A DNA stretch of 64,000 bases, taken from NCBI GenBank assembly GCA_905182715.1, contig CAJJCP010000020.1, positions 319 to 64,318 on the forward strand, given 5' to 3'. The stretch is from an uncultured Candidatus Poseidoniales archaeon (GTDB lineage Archaea > Thermoplasmatota > Poseidoniia > Poseidoniales > Poseidoniaceae). The notes below the pieces were generated by a model. It searched no databases and was not told where the DNA came from. It worked only from the letters and a program-made list of their open reading frames with translations. Numbering within the stretch: the stretch's first letter is position 1; each line of letters opens with the position of its first letter. The position numbers and the translations under genes are program-made. Below, in pieces: positions 6,482 to 38,433 of the stretch.

Positions 6482-6517
6482 TCCATCTAATAATTTAGTC
6501 GAGTAAGTGTTTTTTTG

Positions 6518-8065: not shown

Positions 8066-8076
8066 CACAATCACCG

Positions 8077-8608: not shown

Positions 8609-9360
8609 ATTTTTTCTCGTTCATTTTGCTCACTCATCTTTTGAATCTATCAAGTCGTTCGGATTTTATTAAATTTGACATGAAGAGTGGCTTTTTGGCG
8701 TACCCTCAGCACCGATTAAGACGAGCTTCATCCAATGGATTCGGATTCTTCAACACATCTTCGACATGATGCAATAGAAAACCTAACTTTTCTTTCTCTG
8801 TTCGACAGCCGATAAAACTCTCGCTGAAACCAGGCCCTGTACTAAGGCCACAAATCTCCATTTCAGGCAAGATACTGTATCTCCCTTTTCGAAAGATATT
8901 TTCATGCTCAATATTTTCACACTTGGGCGATAGCACAAACACCTGTGGAGTTTCTGCAAAGGAACGGGAATCAATGAGAAGCTGGTAGTTCACTACGCTT
9001 TGATCACGACTCGAAACAACACCTTGAAGGTTTACAACAAAAGCGCCAATTGTATTTTTTGTACTGTGTTTACTGCTAAAGTTCAGCGAAGGGTACATCG
9101 TCATTTTGAAACGGTTAAACACTGCTTTGGACAAACTTGAACCCGAGCACACTCGAAGAGGCACTTTGTATTCACCCGGCATTCCCTGGCCGGAATTTGT
9201 TCGTCTCCAGCCGACGATGCGGAGGAGGTCCCCATTTCCATCATAAATCCCGTATGTTTCTCTCGTTGCATTTGTGCTCACTTCATCGTTTGAATCTTTC
9301 GAGTCGTAATCGGATTTTCATTAAATTTGACATGAAGGAGTGGCTTTTTGCCGTACCCTC
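8081..9360. repeat. Tandem duplication of about 630-640 bp (E2-like gene plus the 3' end of the gene upstream of it)
   Basis: 8081-8707 is homologous to 8722-9360. The central coding core encodes the same amino acids in both copies. The flanks carry substitutions and indels. Confidence 0.85.
8706..9281 (-). CDS. E2/UBC-like protein, copy B (intact)
   Basis: FAETPQVFVLSP..IEHENIF(x13)EICG..LLHHVEDVLKNPNPLDEA resembles the E2 pattern PPxVxF..HPN..C..LLxxPNPxxP. The HxN-to-Cys loop is longer than in canonical E2s (15 intervening residues). Confidence 0.6.
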   Translation of the reverse strand: MSTNATRETYGIYDGNGDLLRIVGWRRTNSGQGMPGEYKVPLRVCSGSSLSKAVFNRFKMTMYPSLNFSSKHSTKNTIGAFVVNLQGVVSSRDQSVVNYQLLIDSRSFAETPQVFVLSPKCENIEHENIFRKGRYSILPEMEICGLSTGPGFSESFIGCRTEKEKLGFLLHHVEDVLKNPNPLDEARLNRC

Positions 9361-10252
9361 GACGATAATCAAGATACGCTTCTTTGCCAGCAGGTGTTGC
9401 GAGCGAAATTGGAGCAACGACCCACCGGCCTTTTACAGTCACCGTGGAAAGGCCTGGTTGAACGATGACGAAAGTGCATCCGAATAGGCGATTCTCGGAT
9501 GCTGGATGTTGTACAGTTCAGCCGATTCTCCCGCTCTCTGGAAGTTTGCAATGAAGAGATGTTGTCCATCACGATAATGCGGGAGGTTCACCAACGCTGG
9601 TGAATTCTTCGACCTGCGTCGCGAACCCGAACTCCCATCCCATGTTGGCCCCTTCTTTGGCAGGCGATTACCCGTGCAATGAGATGCACGTTGCCACCAC
9701 TCCAGCTGGGCTGGCGTCACACTTCCTTTGAAGATACTCTGGCCGACTTTAAGCGTAGAAGGGGTTTTCAAGGCTACATTGGGCTAGTTTGTTATTTTTC
9801 GCGCTGTTGCTGCTCTGTGGCTTGCTCTGTGGCTTGCTCTGTGGCTTGCTCTGTGGCTTGAAATTTATTTGGGACTGGGCTGAGGTCTGGGCGGAAAACT
9901 GCGACTCCCCTGTTACCAGCCACAGTTTGTATCGTACTGCACAGCATCCCCAAAAACCTCGAATCAAGATCGAAGGGTCGGATGATTGGTAGGGCACCCG
10001 GATGTCATTCTTGTCCAGTCTTGGGAGTCAAAGAGAGAGACTGTCGTTACCTTCGAGAGGCGCGCGGGCGAACACAAGGTCGCCATCTCATATATGGCTT
10101 ATTGCCCGTGCGAAAGCGGTACGCGTACGAAAGAACGATTCTTGCTGTTTTCGTTGAGTGACGAATACATTCGCATATTCGCCGACTTCAATCCCGGGAA
10201 TGAGTAGTTTGGTACCCTCCGCTTAGGCGCTCAGAACCCACAAAGGGTCTCG
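9290..10252 (-). pseudogene. Degraded or ambiguous coding remnant
   Basis: No long clean ORF. One minus-strand frame is open from about 10215 to 9749 except for two in-frame TGAs (10088-10090, 10028-10030) and has no canonical start. At least one further frame change near 9490 leads into ..VTVKGRWVVAPISLATPAGKEAYLDYRRGYGKKPLLHVKFNENP.., which ends at about 9285. Confidence 0.3.
9811..9858. repeat. 12-bp perfect tandem repeat x4 (tgctctgtggct)
   Basis: Read directly from the sequence. It encodes (LLCG)n on the plus strand or (KPQS)n on the minus strand. Confidence 0.9.
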
Positions 10253-10510
10253 TTAGCCGTTTGCTTCACCCCATACCGATTCGACCTGTTTCAGCATCCC
10301 CATGCGGATCTTTATGAGGGGCAGTCTCCTATTGTTTGGTGATTCAGTGCATTTCCGTGGGCATCCATTGCATATCGCAAACTCCCATCGCGCGGGTAGA
10401 AGCCCCGATCGAGTCATGGCTTCAAGTACAGTAGAACTTTCATCCACAAGAACGCGTGTTGAAATGGTCTCGTTTGAACCGAGAATAAATTCAACTTCTC
10501 GGAGACCCAT
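10253..10510 (-). CDS. Small protein ending in Gly; beta-grasp-like N-terminus plus a Cys cluster (tentative)
   Basis: 85 aa: VEFILGSNETISTRVLVDESSTVLEAMTRSGL, then CNGCPRKC, with C-terminus ..WGEANG. It is the first gene of the minus-strand cassette. Confidence 0.35.
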   Translation of the reverse strand: MGLREVEFILGSNETISTRVLVDESSTVLEAMTRSGLLPARWEFAICNGCPRKCTESPNNRRLPLIKIRMGMLKQVESVWGEANG

Positions 10511-10616
10511 GGTTTGTGAGATTTTTTGACCGAGATATCATCTGATTTGTGCTAGATTTAATCAAATATTCCGTTGCGCGCAGTGACTAAATATCATAGT
10601 GAAGGGTGGTCTTAGC
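10511..10616. promoter_or_regulatory. Divergent intergenic region between the two accessory gene blocks
   Basis: AT-rich with TATA-like elements (tttaatcaaatatt, taaatatcat). GGTGG lies 8 nt before the ATG at 10617. Confidence 0.25.
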
Positions 10617-11918
10617 ATGCAATTATGTCTCGTAGAATTTACTCGCAAATGCACGACGGGAGTTTTTTTCACGAAGTTCATCGATGCAGTATCAAAGCAC
10701 GAGATTGAAGAAATTGTTCTTTTCCAACCTACAGACCAAGTTTGCCTTCCTCTTCGCGAAGAATTGGAAGCTAAATTCCCAAAAGCAACTCTCCGCTCTG
10801 AGCAACTTGAACCAATCTCAACTGACATGGTTATCCATGAGATGATGCAGCAACCATGGAACTTATTGCGGCAGATCCTTTCTAAACTTGACGAAGGGCA
10901 GGAGTCGCTGTTTGTTCTTGGTCGTGGCGCAAGTCTGCTTCAGCACATGATGTGGCTTAGCGCGGAAATCCGGGGATGTAAAACGATTTCAATCGACGCA
11001 CCAGATGTCGAACTCTTTCATATCGGCACTTCAGAAGTAAATACAGAGATTGCAAGCACGACCCTCGGGGCATTTGTCAGCCTTCATGCACAGGAAATTA
11101 ATGAAAACATTACGGGTAAAAACGGCTGGTTCAGTGCGAATGATATTTCTCAGTTACCTGGAGCTGTTGCTTCGGGAATAAATGCTGCAACACAACTCCC
11201 TTTGAAAAAAGGATATTTGCTCAAAGAAGAGACACAATCCGGCAATACAGTGTATAAATTAACTCCAAAGGGTTGGCACTCCTGCTCTAAAAGCTTCACA
11301 GAAGCGAGAGGGGTTGAAGATGAAGATTTGAAAGAATTATTGATTTCGTTTTCCCGTCAAATTCCAAGTATTCAGATTGGCAATGGTCAAACTGCGGAAA
11401 CCCCTCTGCTAACTTCGCAAATTTCAGGCGCAGGCATTCACGATGGATTGCTTGTCGTTCTCCAAAGAATAGACGATTCGATTGAAGGGAATCATGTGAT
11501 GACACTTGATGATGCGTGTGATTTTTTCACGGAACCGGGTCTTTTAGGAGATTTACGAGCCGCAAAGGAAATATTACGCCAAAGGTGTGAGTACGATTCT
11601 GTTGATGTGAAAAATCATCTCGTCGTCATCAATCCAGTTTACGATGAAGAGTTTCAATTGCTCTTCTCAAACAACCTTTTCGCTGCTCTTGCTGATTTTG
11701 AAAAGGAATATGGGCGACATAACTGGAATTTTGACATCACCAGTCCGCTGAATCAAATCAAAGCCACTGTGTCTTCTTTTTCAAACGCAAGTAACGCTTC
11801 AACATACTTTATCCTCAAACCGAGAGGAGAAAAAGGAGTTGTTTTTGAGAAAGTCGAACGTTCTCGGCACCCCCGCTATGCTCACAAACTCTCTGTTCCA
11901 AACTCGGAGTGCTCTTGA
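10617..11918 (+). CDS. Hypothetical regulator/sensor with Rossmann-like modules and a winged-helix motif
   Basis: LFVLGRGASLLQHMMWLSAEIRGCKTISID (CARF/Rossmann-like, tentative) and GNTVYKLTPKGW (wHTH wing). The reading appears to continue in other frames up to 12286. Confidence 0.4.
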   Translation: MQLCLVEFTRKCTTGVFFTKFIDAVSKHEIEEIVLFQPTDQVCLPLREELEAKFPKATLRSEQLEPISTDMVIHEMMQQPWNLLRQILSKLDEGQESLFVLGRGASLLQHMMWLSAEIRGCKTISIDAPDVELFHIGTSEVNTEIASTTLGAFVSLHAQEINENITGKNGWFSANDISQLPGAVASGINAATQLPLKKGYLLKEETQSGNTVYKLTPKGWHSCSKSFTEARGVEDEDLKELLISFSRQIPSIQIGNGQTAETPLLTSQISGAGIHDGLLVVLQRIDDSIEGNHVMTLDDACDFFTEPGLLGDLRAAKEILRQRCEYDSVDVKNHLVVINPVYDEEFQLLFSNNLFAALADFEKEYGRHNWNFDITSPLNQIKATVSSFSNASNASTYFILKPRGEKGVVFEKVERSRHPRYAHKLSVPNSECS

Positions 11919-12019
11919 GGTCTTGAAAAAGAAACCCGCTGATGGGTATGGCAACATTCTTGTTGCACTCATGCTCCTTGAAAATGTAAAATCTAAGAAA
12001 GAATTGAAGAATCTTCCGT

Positions 12020-12286
12020 TTGATGATGTCGAAGAAGATGATTTGGATGGTGTCGAATGGACTGAGGTCGTTACTTTTGTGCAAGGATCTGAAATGCCCA
12101 TATGACCTCAGCAAAGGTATTATTTCCGGCAGCCAAACTCGGATGAAAGAGCTCATTCAATCAAAACTTGTACGCCGTCATGTCTCTGATGAAGGCTCAT
12201 CGAAAATGCGTTTCGCCCTCACCAATGAAGGCTACCTTGTTGCAAGTCAGTTGTATGACGTTCTTAAGCAGGAGGGGATGGCATGA
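12020..12286 (+). CDS. Winged-helix DNA-binding segment, possibly the C-terminus of the 10617 gene after frame breaks
   Basis: SGSQTRMKELIQSKLVRRHV..MRFALTNEGYLVA is wHTH-like. The ATGA overlap at 12283 couples it to the next gene. Confidence 0.4.
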   Translation: MMMSKKMIWMVSNGLRSLLLCKDLKCPYDLSKGIISGSQTRMKELIQSKLVRRHVSDEGSSKMRFALTNEGYLVASQLYDVLKQEGMA

Positions 12287-12609
12287 CTGAGTTTACTGTT
12301 GACGATTTGCGTAAATTTCACGAACGCGAGGGCGAGGATGCAAATCTCGTCTGCCCCCATTGTGGCCCCGTTTTTACTCTAGTCGATGGAGAGGCAGAAC
12401 TACGTTTGAGGGGTTTTATTAAACATCAGTCATCTCAATCAGACGAAATGTACCTTCTCGCAAAATTTGGAATATGTGTTGGATACCATACTGGCATAGA
12501 GAATATTTCGCCCTATGGAGTTCCAGTCATTCGAGAGGATGACTATTCCCCTAAGCTCGAACGCGCCCCACTCACCCCCGAAGAACTTGCTATTTTCGAT
12601 GAAAAATAG
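12283..12609 (+). CDS. Hypothetical protein
   Basis: 108-aa ORF, start coupled to the preceding gene (ATGA). One CPHCG motif only. Confidence 0.45.
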   Translation: MTEFTVDDLRKFHEREGEDANLVCPHCGPVFTLVDGEAELRLRGFIKHQSSQSDEMYLLAKFGICVGYHTGIENISPYGVPVIREDDYSPKLERAPLTPEELAIFDEK

Positions 12610-12680
12610 ACGCTCCTGCGCGAGTCACACAACCAAGCCCTGAGAAGAAAAATCTTGTCAAAACGAGTGCAACTGCTGCT

Positions 12681-13466
12681 TTGGGAGATTATTTGTATGA
12701 ATTGGATCCACCCTATGTTTTTGAACAATTCATGTCGACTTGGCAGGAAGAAGATGATAACGAAAATCTCGAAAAACTGAATGCACCCAATGAATGGTTT
12801 GATTGTCTATGGCCGTTCATTAAGGATACGTTGGACGTCAAGAAAGAGGCCACAATTAAAGAAAACCTACTCATCACAATTTACCTTCACAAAACTACTG
12901 AAATGAGGCACATAGAGCCACTATGGCTGTTCTGGAAACGGTTTGGAATGGGGAAAAGAGCTCTTGAAAGGGCTATAGCCTCATTCCCCGCTGGATTACC
13001 GAGCCACTTTCAAGACCTTTTCACGAAAATTGAACGTGATTATGAACCTGACCGCTCAACCATCGAATCACTCGTCAATACCCTCGTACTGGATAAAATA
13101 TGCCCGCCAATGAATGGCTCAGAAATGCAAGGGTTCATTCAAAATGCGACGGATTTCCTTGGGAAAATGAAAAGAGCACCTTACGGGAATTTGAGTTGTT
13201 ATGAATTTTTAATTTCGGAGCCCCTTATCGCTGATTCAATGGCAATTGGCGGTCAGACTCTGCCTCATGCAGGAATTATCGAACTCGTTTGCATCTATGC
13301 AACCATGAGACAAAAAACCAGTTCCGCGGATGAGTTTCTAAGAACGGTATTCCCGAGTGAGGCGGGGCCGTTGTGGGAAAATGTACTTTCAAAACATGGG
13401 AAAAAAATCGGAATCGCCAAAACCATCAATTCCCTAATAACTCATATCGAAAAGAACGCGCAATGA
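12681..13466 (+). CDS. Hypothetical protein
   Basis: 261-aa ORF within the co-oriented island. No motif recognised. Confidence 0.5.
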   Translation: MGDYLYELDPPYVFEQFMSTWQEEDDNENLEKLNAPNEWFDCLWPFIKDTLDVKKEATIKENLLITIYLHKTTEMRHIEPLWLFWKRFGMGKRALERAIASFPAGLPSHFQDLFTKIERDYEPDRSTIESLVNTLVLDKICPPMNGSEMQGFIQNATDFLGKMKRAPYGNLSCYEFLISEPLIADSMAIGGQTLPHAGIIELVCIYATMRQKTSSADEFLRTVFPSEAGPLWENVLSKHGKKIGIAKTINSLITHIEKNAQ

Positions 13467-14836
13467 ATAATACAAATGGAAGTGAGATTGTGGACGAGGG
13501 GATTGTTGAAAATACTCGAAAATACATATTCGACCCTAGAAACAATTTACCCCCTCATGAAATTGAAAACTTGACCCCTTACATGCAAAAGCAAAAAACC
13601 ATAGAAACACTGGAAGAAAAAGGTCACTTTCGAGAGATTGAAGGTGAGATAGGTCCACTGCAAAATATTATCCGATCACCGCCTCATGGTTTATCCAGCA
13701 AAACTAAATTGTGTAGGAGATTATATCTTTTTCTAGATGTGAATTTCAGTATAGCAAAGGGAGATGAGCCAATAAAATCATATGAAAGTTCGTTTAAGGA
13801 CCTCGTTCAAGACAGAATCCAACGGGCCTCATGGAATACAGATGAATCAGATTACGATATCGAGTTGCGAACTCTAAGCGAAGACGCTGATGTCAGCAGT
13901 GAACAATGGAGATCGATCACAATGAGATTAGCCGATCTAACCCCCGGTTCACGATTGTTCGTGTTTGACAATAAAGAAGAGATAAACGATGTTAATGATG
14001 TTGAGGATTTACTTTTATCAAATCATATAAAACTTAGAGAACTCAATGATAAAATTGGAGTGAAGCATGGACCTCTCGAAATGCTGGGCCTCTTCTCAAA
14101 TTCGTTACAACAGGCCTTTAGCAATCCTGAAATGTTTAGAGAGTTTAAGGAAAAAGTAGAAGGAAAAACCGAAGTTATAATCCTCCCCACTTCTTTGAAA
14201 CCAATGAATACAAAACTCCATTTTGAGCGTGCTGGCATTATTGAAGCATTAGTTGCCTCCCACAAAATCGGCGGCGAATATGTCGAATGGATTGATTCAT
14301 GTCTCGAAAAGGTGTTCAAACGAATCAACTCGCATGAAAAACCATTCACTAAGAAGCATGTGGCCATATCCACGAGTACCTTTGTCTCGAAAATTTTTTC
14401 ATCGCCTAGCCGAGAAAAAAAACCTGTAAACCTGGATTCTGAACCGCTAGGTAAAAATAGAATTCAGTGCAGTATTTCAAAAATTAATTCAGTCATCATG
14501 GCTGAAGGTCATGAGAGATTAAATTATTCATGCTGCTCAGATATTCAAAAAGCAATTACGGAGCTGGTTCACCGATCTATGACTTACATTAACACATTGT
14601 TTGAAAAAGAAAGTCAATTCCGCGCAATTATCTTTGCATCTGTAATTAACATGAACGAGGAGATTCGTGGTAGTCTCCATAAAGGCCCAGAAAATGAATT
14701 AACATCTGAAAGCAAAAATACAACAGTCGAAAGTCGAATTAAACAAATGTGGAGCAATTTATCCTCGCTGGATTCAAAGAACATTTGTGGAATACAAACC
14801 ATGACTGCCAAACGTGGACAAGTGGCAAACCCGTGA
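13463..14836 (+). CDS. Hypothetical protein
   Basis: Likely start MNNTNGS at 13463, forming an ATGA overlap with the upstream stop. The ORF track extends to 13373. Confidence 0.5.
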   Translation: MNNTNGSEIVDEGIVENTRKYIFDPRNNLPPHEIENLTPYMQKQKTIETLEEKGHFREIEGEIGPLQNIIRSPPHGLSSKTKLCRRLYLFLDVNFSIAKGDEPIKSYESSFKDLVQDRIQRASWNTDESDYDIELRTLSEDADVSSEQWRSITMRLADLTPGSRLFVFDNKEEINDVNDVEDLLLSNHIKLRELNDKIGVKHGPLEMLGLFSNSLQQAFSNPEMFREFKEKVEGKTEVIILPTSLKPMNTKLHFERAGIIEALVASHKIGGEYVEWIDSCLEKVFKRINSHEKPFTKKHVAISTSTFVSKIFSSPSREKKPVNLDSEPLGKNRIQCSISKINSVIMAEGHERLNYSCCSDIQKAITELVHRSMTYINTLFEKESQFRAIIFASVINMNEEIRGSLHKGPENELTSESKNTTVESRIKQMWSNLSSLDSKNICGIQTMTAKRGQVANP

Positions 14837-15356
14837 GGGAGCAATACTGAACGGGTGGAAGGAGACCTGCAAGTCTTGGGAGTTTAAGGCAAGGAGTAAA
14901 AGTTCGAGGCAAATTAAACAAATTCTTGGAATGATTCTCGAAGATGATGCAGATATCGAACAAATCATAAAGGATTGGAAAGGTTTTCTTGAACAGTTCA
15001 AGAAGAGTGAAGTGAGGGAAAAGAAATACGGATATGGAGCGCTCAGTGAAGTGCCCAAATACGGTTTGTTTTTACTTTCCCAAGGCGTATGTGAACCTCT
15101 TCGTGAGTTATTTGCTGAAACCAAAAAGGTGACGCATGGCGATTTATTTTTATTGAATAAAATTCCCGGAATGGATCTTAATTTTAGACGACTTTACATT
15201 GATATCAAAGATAAGAGGTATATACCTGCAAGTAAGGCTTACGAGATTATAAAGAAGTTAAATGACGCGCTAATCGATTGTAATTGGGAAAATGACGAAT
15301 CGGAAGAAATTTCTATTGACCCAAGTACAGAACCTCTCGAATGGTGGAGTGATTAA
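14814..15356 (+). CDS. Hypothetical protein
   Basis: 180-aa ORF. It overlaps the upstream gene by 23 nt. Confidence 0.45.
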   Translation: MDKWQTREGAILNGWKETCKSWEFKARSKSSRQIKQILGMILEDDADIEQIIKDWKGFLEQFKKSEVREKKYGYGALSEVPKYGLFLLSQGVCEPLRELFAETKKVTHGDLFLLNKIPGMDLNFRRLYIDIKDKRYIPASKAYEIIKKLNDALIDCNWENDESEEISIDPSTEPLEWWSD

Positions 15357-15357
15357 T

Positions 15358-18300
15358 GTGGAAATAGATTGGGATGATGCGCGCAAATTAGCGCACGAAG
15401 GAATCCAAAAAAACCACTTGAGTCATAGTTTAATTCAGCGAATACCGATGGATTCCAAGGTCGTGGAACAATTAGATGGAATCTGGATTAGGAAAAGAAA
15501 AAAGCAGCGGAGTAATCGCGACTCGAATGATAAAGAAATTTTCCCATTTGCTGAAACTATAGCTAAGATTCTCAACCATACATCTGACGGAACCTCTAGG
15601 AATTTCATATTAACTGGGGCCCCATCTGCAGGAAAAACAACTGAACTCAATGTGATAGCAGGAGAATTGATTAAACAGTGGAGTGAAGATTCTCGAAAAA
15701 TAATTCACTTTTGTTCAATTCAGAATACTTCAATATCACACGCTAAAATAAATTCGAAACAAGAATTGTGGAACCTCATAATGGAAAGTCATTCATCGAA
15801 GTATTGGGCTCGGAATGATCTAACCATTTCTGAATTCCTTAAGTGGCATAGCATTAACGATTTACAGCCAGTTCTGTTTGTCGATACGATAGATTTACTC
15901 ACCTATGGTTCGAACCAGTTCGGTTCTGATGGAGAGGGGGGTATTGCACAGTATTGGAATTCGATAATGGATGAACTCGATGCTGAAGAATTTGTGAAAC
16001 CGACAATTATCTGGAGTTCACGCACTGTCGAATGGGGTATATTACAGAAACAAATTAGGAATCCAAATTCAGTAAAGGAAATAAAACTACAACCCATAAG
16101 TCCCGATGAACTACGGAGTAAAGGGCTTGTAGAAAGGGTTGCAGAAGAAAAGAAAGCCGAACAAAATCTCTATTTTTTGAGGCACATACAGCAGTCATTT
16201 CCTATTTTAGCAGGGTATGCGATTCAAAAACTTCTTCATGAAAATACAATTGAAGAACTAAATAAGATGCTTAACAAAGTTATAGCTGAAGAAGATATTC
16301 ACCCGGCTAAGAAACAAAGTCCAATCCCATGGATTATGGCTGCAGTTAATCGAGAATTTGCAACCGATGTTCTCTATCGGTGTCTCGTCTCGTCTCTCTG
16401 CGAAAAAGTTGAACGTAGATTTGACAAAAAAAGGTATAGCCAAGAATATATTAAGTCCATTTGGGAAGGTTTTGTAGAGATCGAATTTTATGAAGCAGCC
16501 CTTCCGCGGTTCAATGTCGGTAGGCGAATTCAAGTTCAATTCGACTTAACCGATTTCGAAGAGCCACATGTGAAAGATATCGTAAATGAATTGCTATTTT
16601 TAGCAATTCGAACTGGAATCTTAAAGAAAAGTGCGAACGATGTTTATGAGATGGGGCACCAATTATTTGCAGAATACTGCGTATATAAAATTGGGACGAA
16701 TAATGATAATATAAATGATGCAGATACACAAAATACATTACGTGGTTTTCCTTCAATATGGCTGAGGCTCTTTGACCAACAAGATTCACAAGTGCTGGAA
16801 GATGATGAAGACTTGAAAGAAAGACTTTTGGAAGCCAAAAATTGGCTTTATCCTTTTGCAGTATTCAATAGAGCTTTACCAATGTTCCAGGACGAAACCA
16901 ATCTCCCCGATGAATGGATGAACCTCATTGAAATGGCAACTTACTATTCACAAACACGTAAACACGATGAAATACCGGATTATGATGTTGATTCGTTTCA
17001 TTGGTTAAATGAAGAAAAAACTAATCTATTAAATGACAATAGATTTTCAGAAAAACCACTTCTCATCAATGGACCACCCGGTGTTGGGAAATCACATATT
17101 TCTTTTATTTGGGCTGACCAAAGGGCTTTCAAAAATGCAGGAGCAAAATGGATTCCGGTTCAAGATGGAGAGGGAGGGAAAAATGATTTTATTCGAAAGG
17201 ACGTGAGAGATAAAAATCCTGTAAAAGCCATGTTCATGACATTGAATCGAAATTTAATCGAGCAACAAAATAAAAGAATAAAGCAATATTATCAAGGAAG
17301 CATCAATCCATTGAATTGGCAAACTGTCGATATTGAAACATATCTTCAAGATATGTGCAAAATTATAGGTATTAAATGGAAAAAACTCGAGTATTCAAAG
17401 TTTGAAGAAGCATTTCATGAAAACCGAATTAAACAGCGGAATAATAGCTTACTGAATGAGGTCCGGAAAAAATCTATTCCTGCGCTATGGCTTGAATATC
17501 AAGTGAATTTCATAGATCCTGATGGAGTCAAAAAAGAGACGGACTCATACAGAGGGGGGCGTTCTGATTTGTTTACTACAAATGAAAAAGATCATATGGA
17601 AGCGTTTGCTAAATACTGTCAAAGTGAATTCACCAAATATCTATCTATTCCTGAAATCGCAGGAGTTATTTCCAATCGAATTCTAGAAATTGAAAACTCC
17701 GATTCTCGAAGGGATAAGGAAAGAATTCTAACAATGAAATCTGATATTCTTGTTCTTGATGAAGTGCAAGATCTCACGTCCCCTATGCTCTCATTGCTAC
17801 TTCTAATGCACAAAGGTGAATTAGGAAGTATTTTCATGTGCGGCGATGATGAGCAAACACTTCTGTTTTCTCCATTTGACTGGAAAAATACCTTCCAAAA
17901 AATCAACGCTTTCTTCCATAAAAAGTCTCAAATATACCCGTCATCATGGCAACTTAAGAGGTTACTAGCGCCTAAGTGGAAATCTGCTGCATCAGATGAT
18001 TTAAACAATTTACTCGTTGTAGAAAGAAATGTTGAACCGATTGTAGATTTTATTGCAGATTCATGGAACACAAGTATTTCACAATTGGTTCGGCCTGATT
18101 CTGAACCTACGACAGGAGCAGGTGCCGTTAAAGCTGGCAAAAAAGCAAAAAACAAAGGGGAAGTTCTTGATAAGACTGGACAGATGTATGGAGTTTATCA
18201 ACGGAAAATTGATCCCACAAGTTTGATACAACTCTGTAAAGATATTTCGGGTTCTACACAAGATGCGGCAGTGGTGTTTCCAGATGAAATTCTTCGTGAT

Positions 18301-19131
18301 TACTTTTATGTAGAACTGGCAAAAGAAGGGATTGATCTCCCGCTTTACACTACTTCCGATGTCAAAGGATTAGAGTATCCGATGGTATTACCAATTTCTC
18401 CATGGTCAATGAATCTCGAAAAAATAAACAGCCATCTGCCTTCATCAATGAATACACTGAGTGAAATAGAAGACTATATGCAAAAATCAGACTCAAACAT
18501 TAACCGCAAAGAAATTATCAAACACATTGCAAAACAACGAAAACGCTTTGCAAACATCATTATTTCTCGTGCAGAGAATTTGTTAGTAGTTCTAAATCTA
18601 GACGATGAATCACTCTCTAAAGAACATAAAATTTTGGATTTCAAAACTCCTGAATCATTCCCTCAGAAGGAAAAGATGGAAATTAATTTTTCCGCTTGGA
18701 CCGATGACCTTGACACAAGAATGGACTCTCAAAAACAAGAATCAGGTCCAAAAACTATCAAATTAAAGTCAGCAGATTCGCTTATTTACCGGCTCTGTAC
18801 AATGATTGACTCTGCAAATCAACAAGGCAATATGAAGCAGATCTCGATGCAAGCAAGACACATTGTAAACGCTCTCACACAGCAGTTGGGGGCAGAGGAA
18901 AAATTCAACCAGTCTGAAATAAAAAATTACACTCTTCCATTTGTTTTAATTGGAAGGTTGGCAAGCAGAAATCTAACAAAAAGCCAGGTAAAGTATCTGC
19001 TCACCATGATTCACGAACATTGGGGTGAAGGAAACTCAATTCAAACTTGGATTAAAGATAAACAAAAAGAAGTTCATATATCAAAGAATGAATATTTAAA
19101 GATTCCATTTGGTGTCTATGATACATTATAG
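15358..19131 (+). CDS. Large two-P-loop protein: N-terminal STAND/AAA-like NTPase plus C-terminal UvrD/Rep-like SF1 helicase
   Basis: P-loop 1 LTGAPSAGKTT with VLFVDTIDLL. P-loop 2 INGPPGVGKSH with ILVLDEVQDL, MCGDDEQT, DVKGLEYPMV and ISRAENLLVV (SF1 motifs I, II, III, V, VI). Probable GTG start at 15358, 2 nt after the upstream stop. Confidence 0.7.
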   Translation: MEIDWDDARKLAHEGIQKNHLSHSLIQRIPMDSKVVEQLDGIWIRKRKKQRSNRDSNDKEIFPFAETIAKILNHTSDGTSRNFILTGAPSAGKTTELNVIAGELIKQWSEDSRKIIHFCSIQNTSISHAKINSKQELWNLIMESHSSKYWARNDLTISEFLKWHSINDLQPVLFVDTIDLLTYGSNQFGSDGEGGIAQYWNSIMDELDAEEFVKPTIIWSSRTVEWGILQKQIRNPNSVKEIKLQPISPDELRSKGLVERVAEEKKAEQNLYFLRHIQQSFPILAGYAIQKLLHENTIEELNKMLNKVIAEEDIHPAKKQSPIPWIMAAVNREFATDVLYRCLVSSLCEKVERRFDKKRYSQEYIKSIWEGFVEIEFYEAALPRFNVGRRIQVQFDLTDFEEPHVKDIVNELLFLAIRTGILKKSANDVYEMGHQLFAEYCVYKIGTNNDNINDADTQNTLRGFPSIWLRLFDQQDSQVLEDDEDLKERLLEAKNWLYPFAVFNRALPMFQDETNLPDEWMNLIEMATYYSQTRKHDEIPDYDVDSFHWLNEEKTNLLNDNRFSEKPLLINGPPGVGKSHISFIWADQRAFKNAGAKWIPVQDGEGGKNDFIRKDVRDKNPVKAMFMTLNRNLIEQQNKRIKQYYQGSINPLNWQTVDIETYLQDMCKIIGIKWKKLEYSKFEEAFHENRIKQRNNSLLNEVRKKSIPALWLEYQVNFIDPDGVKKETDSYRGGRSDLFTTNEKDHMEAFAKYCQSEFTKYLSIPEIAGVISNRILEIENSDSRRDKERILTMKSDILVLDEVQDLTSPMLSLLLLMHKGELGSIFMCGDDEQTLLFSPFDWKNTFQKINAFFHKKSQIYPSSWQLKRLLAPKWKSAASDDLNNLLVVERNVEPIVDFIADSWNTSISQLVRPDSEPTTGAGAVKAGKKAKNKGEVLDKTGQMYGVYQRKIDPTSLIQLCKDISGSTQDAAVVFPDEILRDYFYVELAKEGIDLPLYTTSDVKGLEYPMVLPISPWSMNLEKINSHLPSSMNTLSEIEDYMQKSDSNINRKEIIKHIAKQRKRFANIIISRAENLLVVLNLDDESLSKEHKILDFKTPESFPQKEKMEINFSAWTDDLDTRMDSQKQESGPKTIKLKSADSLIYRLCTMIDSANQQGNMKQISMQARHIVNALTQQLGAEEKFNQSEIKNYTLPFVLIGRLASRNLTKSQVKYLLTMIHEHWGEGNSIQTWIKDKQKEVHISKNEYLKIPFGVYDTL

Positions 19132-19143
19132 CAGCATTCACCA

Positions 19144-20493
19144 GTGGACATATGGTTCATTAATAGTGAATACTATTTCTTAGAAAATCTAGAAGATATT
19201 TCACCGGCTCAGAGAACAATTCAATGGTTTCTTCAAGACATATTCTTAGAGAACTTATCTGATAAAGAAGATGGTGTGAAGGAATGGATTTTAACATTCG
19301 AAAAACTTAATTTACAGGATTTTACGGTTAGTTTACTACTATCGGATGATGATGCAGAATTAAGAGTGATGAACCCGGATTTCTCGTCATTTGACCTCTT
19401 AATTGATAAAGAAAGAAAGAAGGAAAAGCAGTCGGCAAAGGAGTTCTCAGTAAATTCCGAAGGGCGTTCTCGTTTCTGGAAAAAAGGAATTGAACTTCTT
19501 GAAGAGCCGATTATGGATTATGATTCGAAGGAGAAAACAGGGTTTAATCATAAAGAGAGAAGAGAATTTTTGAAGCAGATGATTAGAGAATCCAAGGCAT
19601 TGCCAAATTCTAACAAATCCTTCCTCAAATTCTTTCATAAGCTCAGCATGAATGTTCTCGAATTCACCATTGACTCTTTGCAAGATAAGAAAGCCGAGTC
19701 TGGTGAAGAGGATGCTGTCAAGGAGTTGAATGGCGACATAAAAACTATACTCCAGGGATACTTGAAGTTTGATGGGTTGGGAGACAATAAACCACTCGCC
19801 TTGAAGCGGAAGTCGTATGAGGTAATAGCGAAAGTGTTGTTGTCGAATCCTTCTCTGTTTCACGATGTAGTTTCAAGGAATCCTCTCGATCTCTTTCATA
19901 AAATAGATCACGCCAAAACCTTTGAAGCGCCCTTTATTCTTCAAAGTCAACTCACTATGTACAAGTTGGTCAATATTCTGGAATTTGAGCATTCTCAAAA
20001 AAGATTAATCGTTGGGAATAAGTTGGACAGTGACAATTTCCTGGCAAAATACGTTCTCGACCTCATCTCCAAACTCGTATCAAAAGAGGTATCTGAAAAG
20101 GGTGAATTTACGGTTGAAACATACTTTTCGAATCAAATATTTAAAAACGATTTGACCACAGGTACGACTTCAAAGAACCTGTTTGATGCGAGAGGTTTTC
20201 CGAGGAGTTTCGCAGATGTATTTTCCAACTTAACATCACAGGAGAGTAACTCTAAATCACCGGGAGTGCGAAAATATGCCCCTCTCAAAGAAATAATTAT
20301 CGATTCAATGGGCCTCTCCCAAATACAGAAAATAGTTTTCACATTTTACCGAAATATATATGAGAACTTTCACAATAAGGAGATAGAGTATCACTATACA
20401 CCGAATGCAGCGAAAAAAGGCCATGATTGCAAATTTCGAGATTCTAAAAAAGGAACTTGCAGATTTAAAATTGGGAAAACTAAAATCAAATGA
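19144..20493 (+). CDS. Hypothetical protein
   Basis: 449-aa ORF. The last ~27 aa (KKGHDCKFRDSKKGTCRFKIGKTKIK) look non-native and follow an A6 run at 20413-20418. Confidence 0.5.
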   Translation: MDIWFINSEYYFLENLEDISPAQRTIQWFLQDIFLENLSDKEDGVKEWILTFEKLNLQDFTVSLLLSDDDAELRVMNPDFSSFDLLIDKERKKEKQSAKEFSVNSEGRSRFWKKGIELLEEPIMDYDSKEKTGFNHKERREFLKQMIRESKALPNSNKSFLKFFHKLSMNVLEFTIDSLQDKKAESGEEDAVKELNGDIKTILQGYLKFDGLGDNKPLALKRKSYEVIAKVLLSNPSLFHDVVSRNPLDLFHKIDHAKTFEAPFILQSQLTMYKLVNILEFEHSQKRLIVGNKLDSDNFLAKYVLDLISKLVSKEVSEKGEFTVETYFSNQIFKNDLTTGTTSKNLFDARGFPRSFADVFSNLTSQESNSKSPGVRKYAPLKEIIIDSMGLSQIQKIVFTFYRNIYENFHNKEIEYHYTPNAAKKGHDCKFRDSKKGTCRFKIGKTKIK

Positions 20494-20512
20494 AAATATA
20501 TTCACAAAAGAG

Positions 20513-21475
20513 ATGGTGTTCAAAATACTCAATATTCCAAAATTCAAATCTAATGTTGGCGATATAATGTTTCAAAGAACAATAGAAGAAGATCCAGCAT
20601 TCACTTGGCTTGAAGCATTTGGAGGAGACTTAGGAATCAGCAGGTTACTCGGTTCGTTTAAAGACGATTATAGCAAATATGATTTCAAAGAAGAGGTATT
20701 AAGCGAAATGCAGAACATAAAACTGGATTGTTATCACTTTGATAGAATACATGCATTAAAGGGACTCAATACTGAAGTAGTCAAGAAATTAAGAAAAGAT
20801 CATATCCTCGGAAACATTTCTAATAGTGATTGGCGAAAAATGACTGTTAAAGAAAGTGTAAACGTTAACAAAGGTTGGCGTATTAACAGTATGGATATAT
20901 CTTGCTTTAAGTATGGAGAGTTCAATTTACAAAGTTTAGTGATGTTATATTCGTCGTTAAACGAAATCAGAGGGAATTGGTTGGAAGGTATTACTAAACT
21001 ACAGCAAAACCCAAGAAAAATCTTGACTAAATCTGAACATTTGAGTTCACACATACCCGGGAATTTTGGTGAAACGCAGAGCGATTGGCACTCGCCTGAA
21101 CTCAAACGCTTGGCGGATAAGTTCGATGATGAAAATAAGAAAGAACAACTGATTGAATCACTAAAGCTTGTTGTAAATAAAATGACTGAACCACGTTATT
21201 TCCTCTCGATGATTTTACAAAATTTCACCACCTTAACGAGGAATACCAAAACAGCCACAGGATGGTCAACCCTCAGCAACCATTTCTTTTCAGAGGCCAG
21301 CGCGAATCCCAAATGGTTCTCTTCGTTACCATCGGACATCAAAAAAGGAGTTCATTACTACACTTTCCAAAAATGTGTACTTGAACAATGCTCGAAGAAA
21401 TATATTGGAAAAGAAAGGGATTTTTTACAGGTAGAACTGATAAAATCGATGAATCAGGTAAGAAATGGTCAGTGA
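20513..21475 (+). CDS. Hypothetical protein, possibly fused to the 19144 gene
   Basis: ATG at 20513. The ORF-track frame is open from 20405 and reads plausibly (AMIANFEILKKELADLKLGKL) immediately after the A6 run. Confidence 0.45.
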   Translation: MVFKILNIPKFKSNVGDIMFQRTIEEDPAFTWLEAFGGDLGISRLLGSFKDDYSKYDFKEEVLSEMQNIKLDCYHFDRIHALKGLNTEVVKKLRKDHILGNISNSDWRKMTVKESVNVNKGWRINSMDISCFKYGEFNLQSLVMLYSSLNEIRGNWLEGITKLQQNPRKILTKSEHLSSHIPGNFGETQSDWHSPELKRLADKFDDENKKEQLIESLKLVVNKMTEPRYFLSMILQNFTTLTRNTKTATGWSTLSNHFFSEASANPKWFSSLPSDIKKGVHYYTFQKCVLEQCSKKYIGKERDFLQVELIKSMNQVRNGQ

Positions 21476-21740
21476 TGGAGACCATCTTCTGGTGTTTGGT
21501 GGAAACGGTGTTTCGATTATAGAAGCTCGAACAAATTCACATCAAAACCTCAAGATGATTTCAATGCCACTTCTTACTGGTGGAACCATTTCTCCAGATT
21601 ATATATGGCTCACTACAGATGGCGAAGGAGTGTATGGATACGAAAATAATCCTCAATATACTGAAATTGAACGCGTATCCATTCGATATGCAGACTCAAC
21701 CGCTGTGCATGAACCATCCAGTTCGGAGTCCTCTTGCTAA
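21465..21740 (+). CDS. Hypothetical small protein or fragment
   Basis: 91 aa. Start overlaps the upstream stop. DGDHLLVFGGNG and IWLTTDGEGVYGY resemble beta-propeller blade motifs. It overlaps the start of the aminotransferase. Confidence 0.25.
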   Translation: MVSDGDHLLVFGGNGVSIIEARTNSHQNLKMISMPLLTGGTISPDYIWLTTDGEGVYGYENNPQYTEIERVSIRYADSTAVHEPSSSESSC

Positions 21741-22906
21741 ACACTGGGGCCTTGATTCACAATGTGTCTTTCTCAACCACGGCTCATTCGGTGCTACACC
21801 ATTTGCAATACGAGAAGAACAACGCAAGTGGCAAGATCTGCTTGAAGAAGAACCTGTACGGTTTTACGAAGATTTGGCCATGGGACTTCATGGAGAACTC
21901 TCGCAAAGCACTCGCCGAAATGCTGCATTGCGATGCCGAAGACTTGGCAATAATTGAAAATGCAACAACCGGCGTGAACACAATTTTACGTTCCCTCGTC
22001 TTCAATGAAGGTGATGAAATTCTGGTCCCTGACCATGCCTATCAGGCTTGTCGAAACACGGTTGACTTCGTTGCGAACGCTGGGGTGCGAAAGTCGTCAC
22101 AGTCGAGATTCCATTCCCAATAGAAGGGCCTCAAGTGGCGCTTGAAGCCATCATGGCCGGTGTCAGTGACCGTACCGTTTTGGCCATGATCGATACCGTC
22201 ACAAGTCCAACAGGTCTTGTGATGCCGTTTGAAGAATTGGTGCACCAACTCGAATCAAAGGGGGTCGCCGTGATGCTCGATGCTGCACATGGCATCGGGA
22301 TGGTCCCGCTCTCTCTCGATGAATTAGGCGCATCGTACACAACCAGTAATTGCCACAAATGGCTGTGTGCTCCAAAGGGTTCTGCATTCCTCCATGTTCG
22401 CAAAGATCTGCAACACCTCATCCATCCACTTACCATCAGTCACGGTATGTCGTTTCCGTTAGGCGATACTACGCGCTTCCGGCACGAATTTGATTGGACC
22501 GGAACCAGAGATATTTCTGCAGCTTGTTCGATTCCAGCAACCATTGAGTACATGGCCAATATGGTTGAGGGAGGCTGGCCAGCCATTATGAAACAGAATC
22601 ACGATTTGGTCATTGAAGGCCGTAGAATCCTCTGTGAGCGACTTGGCATTGAAGTGCCGTGCCCAGAAGATATGATTGCGTGTATTGCCACCTTAGCGCT
22701 CCCTGATGGAGGCAAGTGGCGGCATTCCATTGCATGAGCCTGACCCGTTACACAAGGTCTTGCAAGACAAGTATGGCATCCAAGTTCCTGTCTGGTCGTG
22801 GGAATCACCCAAAGGCCGCTACATCCGCATCTCTGCCCAGTTGTACAACCACGTCGATGAGTATCACTATCTCGCTGATGCGCTTGCTTCCGAATTAAAT
22901 CTCTAA
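21709..22906 (+). pseudogene. PLP-dependent aminotransferase class V (isopenicillin-N-epimerase/cysteine-desulfurase-like) with three frame breaks
   Basis: LNHGSFGATP, ENATTGVN, VTSPTG and SNCHKWLCAPKGSAFL (PLP Lys) are spread over four ORFs in alternating frames. The breaks lie near 21875, 22075 and 22705. Confidence 0.7.
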
Positions 22907-23261
22907 TCAAAAGGTGAGAACTTTTTCACTGTCTTGCACCCATGCTGAACATTCAGCCATGGTCGAGAATTGCGCGCCTTCGTAGTATGGCTGGCCCTTG
23001 AGTACGCCGCAACGGCTCTGACAGGTCCCACAGACCTTGACTGGAACGCCTTTGGCAATCAGTTCCTTGGTCATCGCCACCATGTCCTCAATACCTTCAG
23101 GAGGTTCGATTCCATCACGCGCTAAGTCCACGCTATCGTTCATCAAAAAGATTCGGACTTCTGCTCCGTCACTCATTCAGTTGCCGAGCCAATCGCAATG
23201 CATTCCACGTCACATCCGTTCCGTCGTAGGGCTGTTGATTCAAGATGAGCATAATCGCCAT
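22907..23261 (-). CDS. DsrE/DsrF-like sulfur-relay family protein, interrupted by one frame break
   Basis: N-terminal fragment MAIMLILNQQPYDGTDVTWNALRLARQLN (23169-23261) and C-terminal fragment GAEVRIFLMNDSVDLAR..VKVCGTCQSRCG (22907-23176) together give the family pattern. The frame change is near 23170-23176. Confidence 0.5.
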
Positions 23262-23360
23262 AGAACTTCCAATACAAGCCGGTGTTTGAAGGCAACGATG
23301 ATGTGAAAATGGGAGAAAAGGAAAACATGAGTTGAAAAGGAGGAGTTGGGACCAGCAATC

Positions 23361-29748: not shown

Positions 29749-29757
29749 GGAATTACT

Positions 29758-38431: not shown

Positions 38432-38433
38432 CC

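What the first reader, a model, noticed from the sequence alone, without database searches (positions are those of the whole stretch)
10599..21475. Co-oriented block of about 9 uncharacterised genes around a two-NTPase giant protein, AT-rich from about 12.6 kb
Divergent from the Ubl cassette, a tightly packed plus-strand gene set has several ATGA/overlap junctions. It comprises a wHTH/Rossmann-like protein, proteins of 108, 261, 457 and 180 aa, the ~1260-aa STAND-like plus SF1-helicase protein, then proteins of 449 and 356 aa (possibly one ~780-aa protein) and a 91-aa fragment. Apart from the P-loop/helicase and wHTH motifs, I recognise nothing. The composition shift by eye, the lack of housekeeping motifs and the adjacent decayed genes at 21.7-23.3 kb are typical of a horizontally acquired defence or mobile island. 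No integrase, transposase, capsid or terminase motif was seen.
Basis: partly seen in the sequence, partly recalled or inferred. Interest (0 to 1): 0.65.

Follow-up and report, generated by a model that had tools for sequence, protein, structure and literature searches.

The report
Swappable giant-helicase gene cassette, Poseidoniales
The "nine unknown genes" are four genes split by frame errors, and the last two, a 600-residue protein and a 2,100-residue double-motor protein, form an AT-rich cassette that marine Poseidoniales archaea exchange as very different alleles at a fixed site, as immune-type genes do.

Summary
The co-oriented plus-strand block and the GC drop are real, but the gene count is wrong. 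In about 50 related metagenomic loci the same DNA encodes four genes of about 563, 394, 630 and 2,121 aa. Only the window has them broken, by 1-nt indels, one TAG and a replaced 3' end. At least three of the indels look like strain-mixture consensus errors.

The block has two parts. Genes 1 and 2 (10599-13466) have near-host GC and evolve at the same rate as the divergent E1/Cdc48 operon. Genes 3 and 4 (13463 to about 21.7 kb) are a separate unit. They encode a 590-650-aa "partner" with no detectable homology and a giant protein with a P-loop ATPase, an SF1 UvrD-like helicase and about 1,000 variable helical residues.

This pair is known only from Poseidoniales-type marine archaea. It is always 6-15 GC points below its host. 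It shows 20-40% identity between strains whose flanks are 80-100% identical. In one pair of strains, identity stops exactly at the partner start codon. Conspecific strains carry other genes at this slot next to DsrE.

No integrase, virus, plasmid or PADLOC system matches. The best reading is a new NTP-driven conflict or defence cassette, about 45% likely. The function is inferred, not shown.

The parts
10599..12286 (+). Gene 1. Homologue of a 556-563-aa protein with no family match.
   Evidence: tblastn of the intact L001 protein: residues 1-437 in frame 3, 439-498 in frame 1, 495-563 in frame 2. +1 insertions at 11905 and 12088 relative to all relatives. GC 0.435. It is 57-94% identical between loci, like the E1 operon.
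12283..13466 (+). Gene 2. Homologue of a 387-394-aa protein with no family match.
   Evidence: tblastn: residues 1-107 in frame 1 and 96-394 in frame 3. A scrambled patch at 12605-12660 has -1, +1 and -1 indels and creates a TAG at 12607-12609. ATGA overlaps occur at both ends, as in intact relatives.
13463..15356 (+). Gene 3, the 'partner' (590-650 aa in relatives).
   Evidence: tblastn: residues 1-453 in frame 2 and 455-630 in frame 3. A +1 at 14819-14821 sits at a switch between two population haplotypes. The gene always lies immediately upstream of the giant in about 50 loci. Partners from all three settings are homologous (hhalign probability 99%, E 1e-17). There are no Pfam, PADLOC, PHROG, NCBIfam or PDB hits. 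GC 0.383.
15316..21475 (+). Gene 4, the 'giant' (1,967-2,238 aa in relatives).
   Evidence: All homologues are single proteins of about 2,000-2,240 aa. Residues 1-1726 map in frame 1 across a TAG at 19129-19131. Residues 1701-2053 map in frame 2. A +1 at 20410 sits at a haplotype switch. GC 0.368.
15493..16950 (+). N-terminal P-loop ATPase module of the giant (AAA/STAND-like). Walker A GAPSAGKT is at 15616-15639, Walker B LFVDTIDLL at 15874-15900, and WSSR at 16012-16023.
   Evidence: The motifs are invariant in 13 family members. Pfam AAA scores 26.6 bits against a cut-off of 21.2. AAA_16, nSTAND3 and NACHT hits are below threshold. PADLOC mad8 gives a local hit in 13 of 13 members, covering 43 of 314 profile positions.
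16951..18615 (+). SF1 (UvrD/Rep-like) helicase module of the giant. Motif I is at 17071-17094, II (DEVQD) at 17755-17775, III (GDDEQ) at 17839-17859, IV at 18019-18033, V (KGLEY) at 18361-18381 and VI at 18535-18570.
   Evidence: Pfam AAA_19 is above threshold in 13 of 13 members. UvrD-helicase PF00580 matches in 4 of 13 (E 7e-9). The motifs are conserved. Weak GajB and MkoA PADLOC hits occur in 4-5 of 13 members.
18616..21466 (+). C-terminal variable, mostly alpha-helical region of the giant (about 1,000 aa).
   Evidence: Identity between alleles falls from 40-54% in the motor modules to 12-32% here. The AF2 model of the 449-aa fragment is all-alpha (pLDDT 59, pTM 0.56). No Foldseek PDB match has E below 0.4.
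19128..19185 (+). Window-unique scrambled patch that creates the apparent G|H gene boundary. It holds a TAG at 19129-19131.
   Evidence: 34 of the window's 36 singleton alignment columns in the 8-kb cassette lie here. The net length change is -9 nt, so the reading frame is kept.
21467..21732 (+). Right edge of the cassette. About 230 nt are found in no relative and replace the giant's 3' end and the intergenic spacer. This segment holds the artefactual 91-aa ORF J.
   Evidence: All eight close relatives align up to 21466 and resume at 21733. Only a 29-nt match to the giant's stop region lies inside. L025 similarity starts at 21695.
21695..23260 (.). Flank genes. The class-V aminotransferase (+) has window-specific indels at 21884, 22078 and 22716. 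DsrE (-) has a +1 at 23172. The border of the strain-variable slot is at 22905.
   Evidence: Pfam. Intact 398-aa and 117-aa versions occur in conspecific contigs. Five conspecific contigs lose similarity exactly left of 22905.

Best explanation
The block is four genes, not nine, and it has two parts.

Part 1. Genes 1-2 (10599-13466) belong with the divergent E1-like/Cdc48-like operon.

Part 2. Genes 3-4 (13463 to about 21.7 kb) are a self-contained, AT-rich, hypervariable two-gene cassette. It is specific to Poseidoniales-type marine archaea. It encodes a ~600-aa partner and a ~2,100-aa protein made of a P-loop ATPase switch, an SF1 UvrD-like helicase and a ~1,000-aa variable helical region.

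Shown:
- The cassette is inherited and exchanged as a unit by recombination in conserved flanks.
- Very divergent alleles coexist in near-identical backgrounds.
- The slot next to DsrE is variable among conspecific strains.
- The catalytic motifs of both motors are conserved, while the C-terminal region and the partner diverge fastest.

Inferred (about 45%): it is an NTP-driven nucleic-acid surveillance or defence module. In this model the helicase engages foreign DNA or RNA. The N-terminal ATPase acts as an assembly or activation switch. The variable C-terminal region and the partner supply specificity and/or the effector. Balancing or arms-race selection by viruses maintains the allele diversity.

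The window's own copy carries at least 7 frame disruptions. These are more likely consensus errors of a strain-mixed assembly (about 65%) than true pseudogenisation (about 35%).
For: Four genes:
- Giant homologues are all 1,967-2,238 aa.
- Intact 563/394/630/2121-aa gene sets occur in 8 contigs that are 96-99.4% identical to the window.
- All 29 metagenome loci have a single giant ORF preceded by a partner.

Cassette unity: the partner+giant pair occurs in three different syntenic settings. Partners from all settings are homologous.

Hypervariability and swapping:
- Flanks are 60-97% identical where the partner is 31% and the giant 37-41%.
- L038 versus L043: genes 1-2 are 100% identical and the DNA is 99.9% identical over 8,064 nt. 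The partner is 30% and the giant 39% identical. Identity ends at the partner start codon and resumes after the cassette.
- L043 versus L042 shows the reverse: flanks 80%, cassette 88-90%.

Composition: the cassette is 6-15 GC points below its flanks in hosts of 33, 42, 46 and 56% GC. GC3 is 0.45 against 0.65-0.71 in the high-GC host. The GC step in the window falls at the cassette edges.

Flexible slot.

Restricted family: only 36 hits among 1.84 billion representatives. Named members are all Poseidoniales, Poseidoniaceae or 'Euryarchaeota archaeon'. The host of the window is Ca. Poseidoniaceae.

Motors. Gradient of divergence along the giant.

Artefact signature:
- The inserted bases at 14819, 20410 and 21884 are the union of two population haplotypes, at the edge of 3-7-nt patches of the other haplotype.
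- The changes at 8193 and 8207 are homopolymer -1 deletions.
- There are no indels in 17.7 kb of core flank, against at least 14 in 5.2-23.2 kb.
- An analogous local error cluster occurs in another public contig.
Against: - There is no direct evidence of defence. PADLOC hits are local to the P-loop (43 residues of mad8) and to helicase motifs. The partner hits nothing.
- No recognisable effector domain (nuclease, protease, TIR and so on) was found anywhere.
- The structure models were too poor to help: partner pLDDT 34, C-terminal fragment pLDDT 59 with no fold match.
- Only one locus has a DNA methyltransferase neighbour, so there is no defence-island context.
- In the window's lineage the cassette is translationally coupled to genes 1-2 and always accompanies the E1/Cdc48 operon. 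It may therefore serve that pathway rather than act alone.
- Against the artefact reading: the 19128-19185 patch and the replaced 3' end are unique to the window. The +1 insertions at 11905 and 23172 lie at sites invariant in all relatives.
Confidence: 0.6

Rival explanations
1. The window shows a genuinely decaying locus. After loss of function, the whole 5-23 kb region (Cdc48, the 182-aa and 361-aa genes, genes 1-4, the aminotransferase and DsrE) is accumulating frameshifts, a nonsense codon and a 3' deletion in this strain.
For: All disruptions are window-specific and clustered in 5.2-23.2 kb, with none in the next 17.7 kb. The 19128-19185 patch and the 21467-21695 replacement match no known haplotype. 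The +1 insertions at 11905 and 23172 are clean and lie at invariant sites. Accessory cassettes are often lost.
Against: Outside the patches the cassette is 99.4% identical to intact relatives, so there has been almost no time for neutral decay. Three indels are exact unions of two co-occurring haplotypes, placed at micro-switch points. The 9190-10600 region has about 55 insertions and almost no deletions, which is unlike natural decay. DsrE and the aminotransferase are conserved host genes, yet they are hit too.
Confidence: 0.35
2. The cassette is not autonomous. It is the variable output or target-recognition arm of the adjacent ubiquitin-like (E1/Cdc48) system, together with genes 1-2. It would act, for example, as a regulated effector or substrate adaptor.
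For: In the window's lineage the eight genes always occur together. Gene junctions overlap by ATGA, and the promoter region is divergent.
Against: The partner+giant pair occurs without any E1/Cdc48 genes in two other conserved settings: SNO-rSAM ... 488-aa/PAP2, and AhpC ... MTase. It is swapped independently of genes 1-2, with a breakpoint at the partner start codon. Its GC and rate differ sharply from genes 1-2 and the E1 operon.
Confidence: 0.15
3. It is a selfish mobile element or integrated replicon. The AAA ATPase plus helicase would be its replication machinery.
For: Foreign composition, patchy distribution, and many 8-9-kb contigs that hold just the two genes.
Against: No integrase, transposase, Rep or primase, capsid or terminase was found. 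No tRNA or flanking direct repeats are present. There are no relatives in 2.9 million viral contigs, 50,697 phage records or 72,556 plasmids. The 8-9-kb contigs carry pieces of chromosomal neighbours at both ends. The chromosomal site is fixed and conserved across deep divergence.
Confidence: 0.05
4. It is a lineage-specific housekeeping DNA repair or replication helicase complex that simply evolves fast.
For: Helicase and ATPase motifs are conserved. The chromosomal position is stable within lineages.
Against: Conspecific strains lack it at this slot. Alleles in identical backgrounds are 30-39% identical. Codon composition is foreign. Only about 16 full-length 50%-identity clusters exist, although Poseidoniales are extremely abundant in the data.
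Confidence: 0.07

Closest known systems
Gabija GajB and other UvrD-like SF1 helicases of defence systems (also Mokosh MkoA)
   Same: The second motor of the giant has SF1 motifs I-VI. It passes the Pfam AAA_19 threshold in all members. It gives weak PADLOC GajB hits (E 2e-4 to 3e-3) and MkoA hits in 4-5 of 13 members.
   Different: There is no GajA-type OLD/Toprim partner and no PLD nuclease. The helicase is embedded in a 2,100-aa protein between another ATPase and a 1,000-aa helical region. No solved helicase reaches E below 0.03 with a family profile.
STAND / AAA_16-type NTPases with variable C-terminal sensors (Avs-, NLR-like)
   Same: An N-terminal P-loop has Walker A and Walker B motifs. 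There are weak AAA_16, NACHT and nSTAND3 similarities. A long, fast-evolving helical C-terminal region is present, and the gene lies in a variable locus.
   Different: All STAND-type Pfam scores are below their thresholds. A complete helicase lies between the ATPase and the putative sensor. No known effector domain or repeat type was recognised.
MADS (methylation-associated defence system) component mad8
   Same: All 13 giants hit the PADLOC mad8 model (best E 7e-8).
   Different: The match covers only about 43 residues around the first Walker A, out of 314 profile positions. None of the other seven mad genes is present. Only one locus (L006) has a neighbouring N6/N4 DNA methyltransferase.
Allelic cassette hotspots in flexible genomic islands (defence hotspots; hypervariable islands of marine microbes)
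   Same: Conserved flanks, sharp recombination borders, coexisting unrelated or very divergent contents in one population, lower GC than the host, and assembly breaks at the borders.
   Different: Here one homologous two-gene architecture is kept while its sequence diverges to 20-40% identity. A typical hotspot holds a mix of unrelated systems. No mobility genes are present.

Membership tests
SF1 (UvrD/Rep-like) helicases | Walker A (motif I) and DExx (motif II) | tested here: met
   GPPGVGKS lies at 17071-17094 and LDEVQDL at 17755-17775. Both are invariant in 13 members.
SF1 (UvrD/Rep-like) helicases | Significant match to a curated SF1 model | tested here: met
   Pfam AAA_19 scores 34.4 bits against a cut-off of 25.1 and matches 13 of 13 members. 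PF00580 UvrD-helicase matches 4 of 13 members (E 7e-9).
SF1 (UvrD/Rep-like) helicases | Motifs III-VI and a C-terminal RecA-like domain (UvrD_C) | tested here: inconclusive
   GDDEQ, VERN, KGLEY and RxxNVxLSR are conserved and were assigned by eye. No UvrD_C Pfam hit was found, and no PDB helicase is matched by the family profile.
SF1 (UvrD/Rep-like) helicases | ATP-dependent unwinding or translocation | not testable with these tools
   This needs biochemistry.
STAND NTPases | Match to NACHT, NB-ARC, AAA_16 or nSTAND models above threshold | tested here: not met
   AAA_16 scores 25.9 against a cut-off of 32.6. nSTAND3 scores 17.3 against 27.2. NACHT hits occur only in 3 of 13 members, at E 1e-5. 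The NPHP3_N hit lies on the helicase P-loop.
STAND NTPases | C-terminal repeat sensor (TPR, WD40 or LRR) and N-terminal effector | tested here: inconclusive
   The C-terminal fragment model is helical, but its pLDDT is 59 and the best Foldseek E is 0.43. No effector domain was found.
Known anti-phage defence systems (PADLOC-DB v2) | Full-length matches to the system's component models, with the expected gene set | tested here: not met
   Only local hits to mad8, IetA, GajB, MkoA and RTasHel were found in the giant. Nine partners and genes 1-2 hit nothing.
Horizontally acquired / flexible genomic island | Deviant composition | tested here: met
   The cassette has GC 0.37 against 0.47 for the core, with steps at 13.4 and 21.4-21.8 kb. 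The same offset occurs in four host GC backgrounds, and GC3 deviates strongly in the high-GC host.
Horizontally acquired / flexible genomic island | Presence/absence or content polymorphism among close strains | tested here: met
   Five conspecific contigs diverge exactly left of 22905. Cassette alleles are swapped in 99.9% identical flanks.
Horizontally acquired / flexible genomic island | Mobility genes, tRNA target, flanking direct repeats | tested here: not met
   No integrase or transposase was found among the window ORFs between 406 and 31.8 kb that were scanned. No tRNA lies within 19 kb. There are no att-like repeats. The left border lies beyond the data, so this test is incomplete.
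Pseudogene array | Frame disruptions relative to intact orthologues | tested here: met
   
Pseudogene array | Disruptions are real in the organism's DNA | tested here: inconclusive
   Haplotype-union indels at 14819, 20410 and 21884 and homopolymer deletions at 8193 and 8207 point to artefact. The unique patch at 19128-19185, the replaced 3' end and the clean +1 insertions point the other way. Reads are not available.

The most novel reading that the evidence does not exclude
Partner+giant is a previously undescribed antiviral (or anti-plasmid) immune system of Poseidoniales, the most abundant planktonic archaea. It would be a dual-motor (ATPase switch plus SF1 helicase) sensor-effector with a dedicated partner. 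It would be maintained as a population-level library of highly divergent alleles that are exchanged by homologous recombination at a fixed chromosomal slot. In Poseidoniaceae it may be functionally wired to a ubiquitin-like E1/Cdc48 pathway.
Probability: 0.35. Interest if true: 0.78.

Novelty: new variant of a known kind. Interest (0 to 1): 0.55.

Why it matters
Poseidoniales (Marine Group II) are uncultured. From my own knowledge, not tested here, they are among the most abundant archaea in the surface ocean, and their viruses (magroviruses) are widespread. How they resist those viruses is little understood.

This two-gene module is lineage-specific. Its alleles differ by 60-80% in strains that are otherwise nearly identical, and it is exchanged with breakpoints at the start codon. 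That marks it as a strong candidate for a population-level immunity or self/non-self locus. It also offers a clean natural system for studying balancing selection and cassette exchange in a wild archaeal population.

There is a practical lesson as well. Reading ORFs in a single MAG-derived window inflated four genes into nine 'uncharacterised genes'. Several of the apparent pseudogene breaks carry the signature of strain-mixture consensus errors.

Tried and rejected
- Family scans. Pfam, PADLOC, NCBIfam and PHROGs were run on all ten window ORFs. Pfam was also run on the intact proteins, and PADLOC on 13 giants and 9 partners. Only the P-loop and helicase parts of the giant hit anything.
- PDB sequence and profile searches. 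These covered the whole giant, its N-domain, its helicase domain, the partner, gene 1 and gene 2. Only Walker-A-level hits appeared, at E above 0.03.
- Partner structure. AF2 had only a 3-sequence alignment available and gave pLDDT 34, so it was not used for fold search.
- Giant C-terminal fragment. AF2 gave pLDDT 59 and Foldseek found nothing significant.
- Partner homologue searches. The word-indexed search returned only 3 clusters, even with a profile.
- The genome-contig scan was swamped by generic helicase patterns and returned only one known locus.
- Viral contigs, phage records and plasmids gave no relatives.
- The exact-sequence look-up of the window's own giant ORF and the MMPL ORF failed.
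- Flanking direct repeats or att sites: none were convincing.
- dN/dS-type codon-position counts between the window and L017 gave too few differences inside the cassette to test for relaxed selection.
- Literature searches for a described Poseidoniales E1/giant-helicase locus or defence system found nothing specific. The MADS paper gave no domain information for mad8.
- Rejected reading: the 449-aa and 356-aa ORFs form one separate ~780-aa protein. They are giant residues ~1285-2053.
- Rejected reading: stop-codon recoding. All relatives have a sense codon at the TAG site, within a different local sequence.

Full report
**1. What is in the window**

ORFs A-J lie head to tail on the plus strand from 10599 to 21740. 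They are divergent from a minus-strand set with two ThiF/E1-like genes, a split Cdc48-like AAA gene and small ORFs. Downstream lie a class-V aminotransferase split over three frames, DsrE and an MMPL transporter. After these come archaeal housekeeping genes such as Pus10, DUF655 and KsgA. Exact-sequence look-ups of these housekeeping proteins return names from Candidatus Poseidoniaceae / Poseidonia MAGs. The host is therefore a Marine Group IIa archaeon. GC is 0.45-0.50 in the core and 0.33-0.40 between about 13.4 and 21.4 kb.

**2. Nine ORFs are four genes**

- The 1,279-aa ORF has only about 14 homologue clusters in 5.8 billion proteins, and every one is 2,000-2,146 aa long.
- Contigs carrying the 99% identical protein, and seven further contigs 96-99.4% identical in DNA, have four plus-strand genes of 563, 394, 630 and 2,121 aa. 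These lie divergent from ThiF-Cdc48-ThiF-182-361.
- Base-level alignment places a window-specific lesion at every boundary:
  - +1 at 11905 and at 12088;
  - a scrambled patch at 12605-12660;
  - +1 at 14819;
  - a 55-nt scrambled, frame-preserving patch at 19128-19185 that contains the TAG;
  - +1 at 20410;
  - replacement of the last ~68 codons by 230 unrelated nucleotides.
- In 29 more metagenome loci the giant is always one ORF of 1,970-2,150 aa, preceded by a 590-650-aa ORF.

**3. Are the breaks real?**

They are confined to 5.2-23.2 kb. From 23173 to 40936 the window has no indel at all against several conspecific contigs at 99.2-99.4% identity.

Evidence for artefact:
- Within the 8-kb cassette the window is 99.4% identical to its relatives. 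34 of its 36 private alignment columns sit in the single patch at 19128-19185.
- The population has two haplotypes here: A (L001, L031) and B (L016-L021). The window is B-type with 1-7-nt islands of A. The +1 insertions at 14819 and 20410 lie exactly at such micro-switches, and the inserted base is the union of both haplotypes. The same holds at 21884 in the aminotransferase.
- The changes at 8193 and 8207 are homopolymer -1 deletions.
- Another public contig (L003) shows nine homopolymer +1 errors confined to 2 kb of the same locus.

Evidence for real decay:
- The unique patch at 19128-19185, the replaced 3' end, and the clean +1 insertions at 11905 and 23172.

I put artefact at about 65% and true decay at about 35%. 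Only reads can decide.

**4. The block is composite**

- Genes 1-2 have GC 0.43-0.44. Between loci they are 57-94% identical, like the E1/Cdc48 genes.
- Genes 3-4 have GC 0.37-0.38. They are 20-46% identical between the same loci.
- The partner+giant pair also occurs without genes 1-2 or any E1/Cdc48 genes in two other conserved settings:
  - between SNO/radical-SAM genes and a 488-aa membrane protein with PAP2/ABC genes, in a host of about 56% GC;
  - between AhpC and an N6/N4 DNA methyltransferase, in a host of about 33% GC.
- Partners from all settings are homologous (hhalign probability 99%, E about 1e-17 over 420-556 columns).

**5. The cassette is hypervariable and swapped**

- L007 versus L008: flanking proteins are 80-97% identical, the partner 31% and the giant 41%.
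- L038 versus L043: genes 1-2 are 100% identical and the DNA is 99.9% identical over 8,064 nt. That identity stops at the partner's start codon. The partner is 30% and the giant 39% identical. Similarity resumes downstream of the cassette, which in L045 holds a third ORF of 1,117 aa.
- L043 versus L042 shows the converse: flanks 80%, cassette 88-90%.
- Along the giant, identity declines from the helicase and ATPase modules (24-54%) to the last 670 residues (12-32%).
- In every host the cassette is 6-15 GC points below its flanks. In the high-GC host its GC3 is 0.45-0.46, against 0.65-0.71 for the flanks.
- Strains with the same DUF655 protein carry a phosphatase and other ORFs left of 22905. 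One strain has the aminotransferase but a different gene upstream of it.
- Many independent assemblies break just outside the two genes, giving contigs of 8-9 kb.

**6. What the proteins are**

The giant has three regions.
- Residues ~60-545 form a P-loop ATPase. It has invariant GxPSAGK[TS], hhhhDTxD and W[ST]xR motifs. Pfam AAA is above its cut-off. AAA_16, NACHT and nSTAND3 are below theirs.
- Residues ~546-1100 form an SF1 helicase with motifs I-VI. Pfam AAA_19 is above its cut-off in 13 of 13 members, and UvrD-helicase matches in 4 of 13.
- About 1,000 further residues are predicted helical, with no fold match.

These assignments rest.

HMMER against 1.84 billion representatives finds only 36 proteins, about 16 of them full length. 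No ordinary helicases appear, so both motors are very divergent.

The partner has an alpha/beta N-terminal half and a helical C-terminal half in a low-confidence model. A few residues are invariant: R19, N68, N125, D169, E255, R287, H558 and W627. It has no homologue in any library or in the PDB.

PADLOC gives only local hits: mad8 P-loop, GajB, MkoA, IetA and RTasHel. There are no viral, phage or plasmid relatives. No tRNA, integrase or att-like repeats were found.

**7. Interpretation**

Shown: a two-gene unit, lineage-restricted, compositionally foreign, hypervariable, recombining as a cassette in a strain-variable slot, with conserved catalytic motifs.

Inferred: an NTP-dependent conflict (defence) module. 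In this model the helicase engages nucleic acid and the N-terminal ATPase acts as a switch. The fastest-evolving parts, the C-terminal region and the partner, would give specificity and/or effector function.

Rivals are listed with probabilities: an arm of the E1/Cdc48 pathway, a mobile replicon, and a housekeeping helicase.

The flexible, foreign-looking character is real, and defence is plausible. The gene inventory, the unity of the block, the recency of acquisition and the reading of the flanking decay are wrong.

**8. Verdict**

The window's copy is fragmented and is possibly an assembly-damaged representation. What it represents is an undescribed, hypervariable dual-motor cassette family of Poseidoniales. 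I rate interest at 0.55. I classify it as a new variant of a known kind: helicase/ATPase-based conflict cassettes in flexible islands.

Noticed in passing
window 513-1032: A 219-nt unit repeated about 2.4 times in tandem (96-100% identical; its first 82 nt occur three times). The repeat lies inside ORF 406-1128, in a low-GC stretch at the left end of the window.
   Followed up: no
window 8080-8720 and 8721-9382: A tandem duplication of about 641 nt covers the 182-aa gene of the E1/Cdc48 operon. The first copy has two homopolymer -1 deletions. The same duplication (182 + 183 aa) exists in TARA contig L017 but not in L001 or L016.
   Followed up: partly
window 9190-10600 (minus strand): The homologue of the 361/375-aa gene next to the divergent promoter region is unreadable. 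It has about 55 small insertions, almost no deletions, and 10-14% mismatches against all close relatives, and it matches in all three frames. This looks like a collapsed mixture of divergent alleles rather than natural decay.
   Followed up: partly
window 9811-9870: A 12-nt unit, TGCTCTGTGGCT, is repeated about 4.5 times in tandem inside the noisy region.
   Followed up: no
window 2732-10510 (minus strand): The operon has two ThiF/E1-like proteins (518-522 aa), a two-domain Cdc48-like AAA ATPase (733 aa in relatives, split in the window at a scrambled patch at 5247-5285), and 182-aa and 361-aa proteins. It is conserved with genes 1-2 in many Poseidoniaceae loci.
   Followed up: partly
L022-L024, L026, L027 (left of the position matching window 22905): Conspecific strains with an identical DUF655 protein carry a 291-aa dual-specificity phosphatase and small ORFs, or other ORFs, in place of the giant locus next to DsrE.
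   Followed up: partly
L045 15984-19334 (also L043 15984-17192): One cassette allele carries a third ORF of 1,117 aa after the giant, with no Pfam hit. Flank similarity resumes only after this ORF.
   Followed up: no
L003 4541-6555 versus L002: Nine homopolymer +1 insertions lie within 2 kb of an otherwise 99.9% identical 16-kb contig. They fragment the homologues of gene 1 and of the 369-aa gene. This is a clear local technical error cluster in a public assembly.
   Followed up: yes
L006 11087-12849: In the low-GC lineage the giant is followed directly by an N6/N4 DNA methyltransferase (256 aa) and a 331-aa membrane-like protein. This is the only hint of a restriction-modification-type neighbour.
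   Followed up: no
L059 127-8859: A giant-like fragment lies at the end of a sugar-nucleotide and glycosyltransferase gene cluster, which is another typical flexible island.
   Followed up: no
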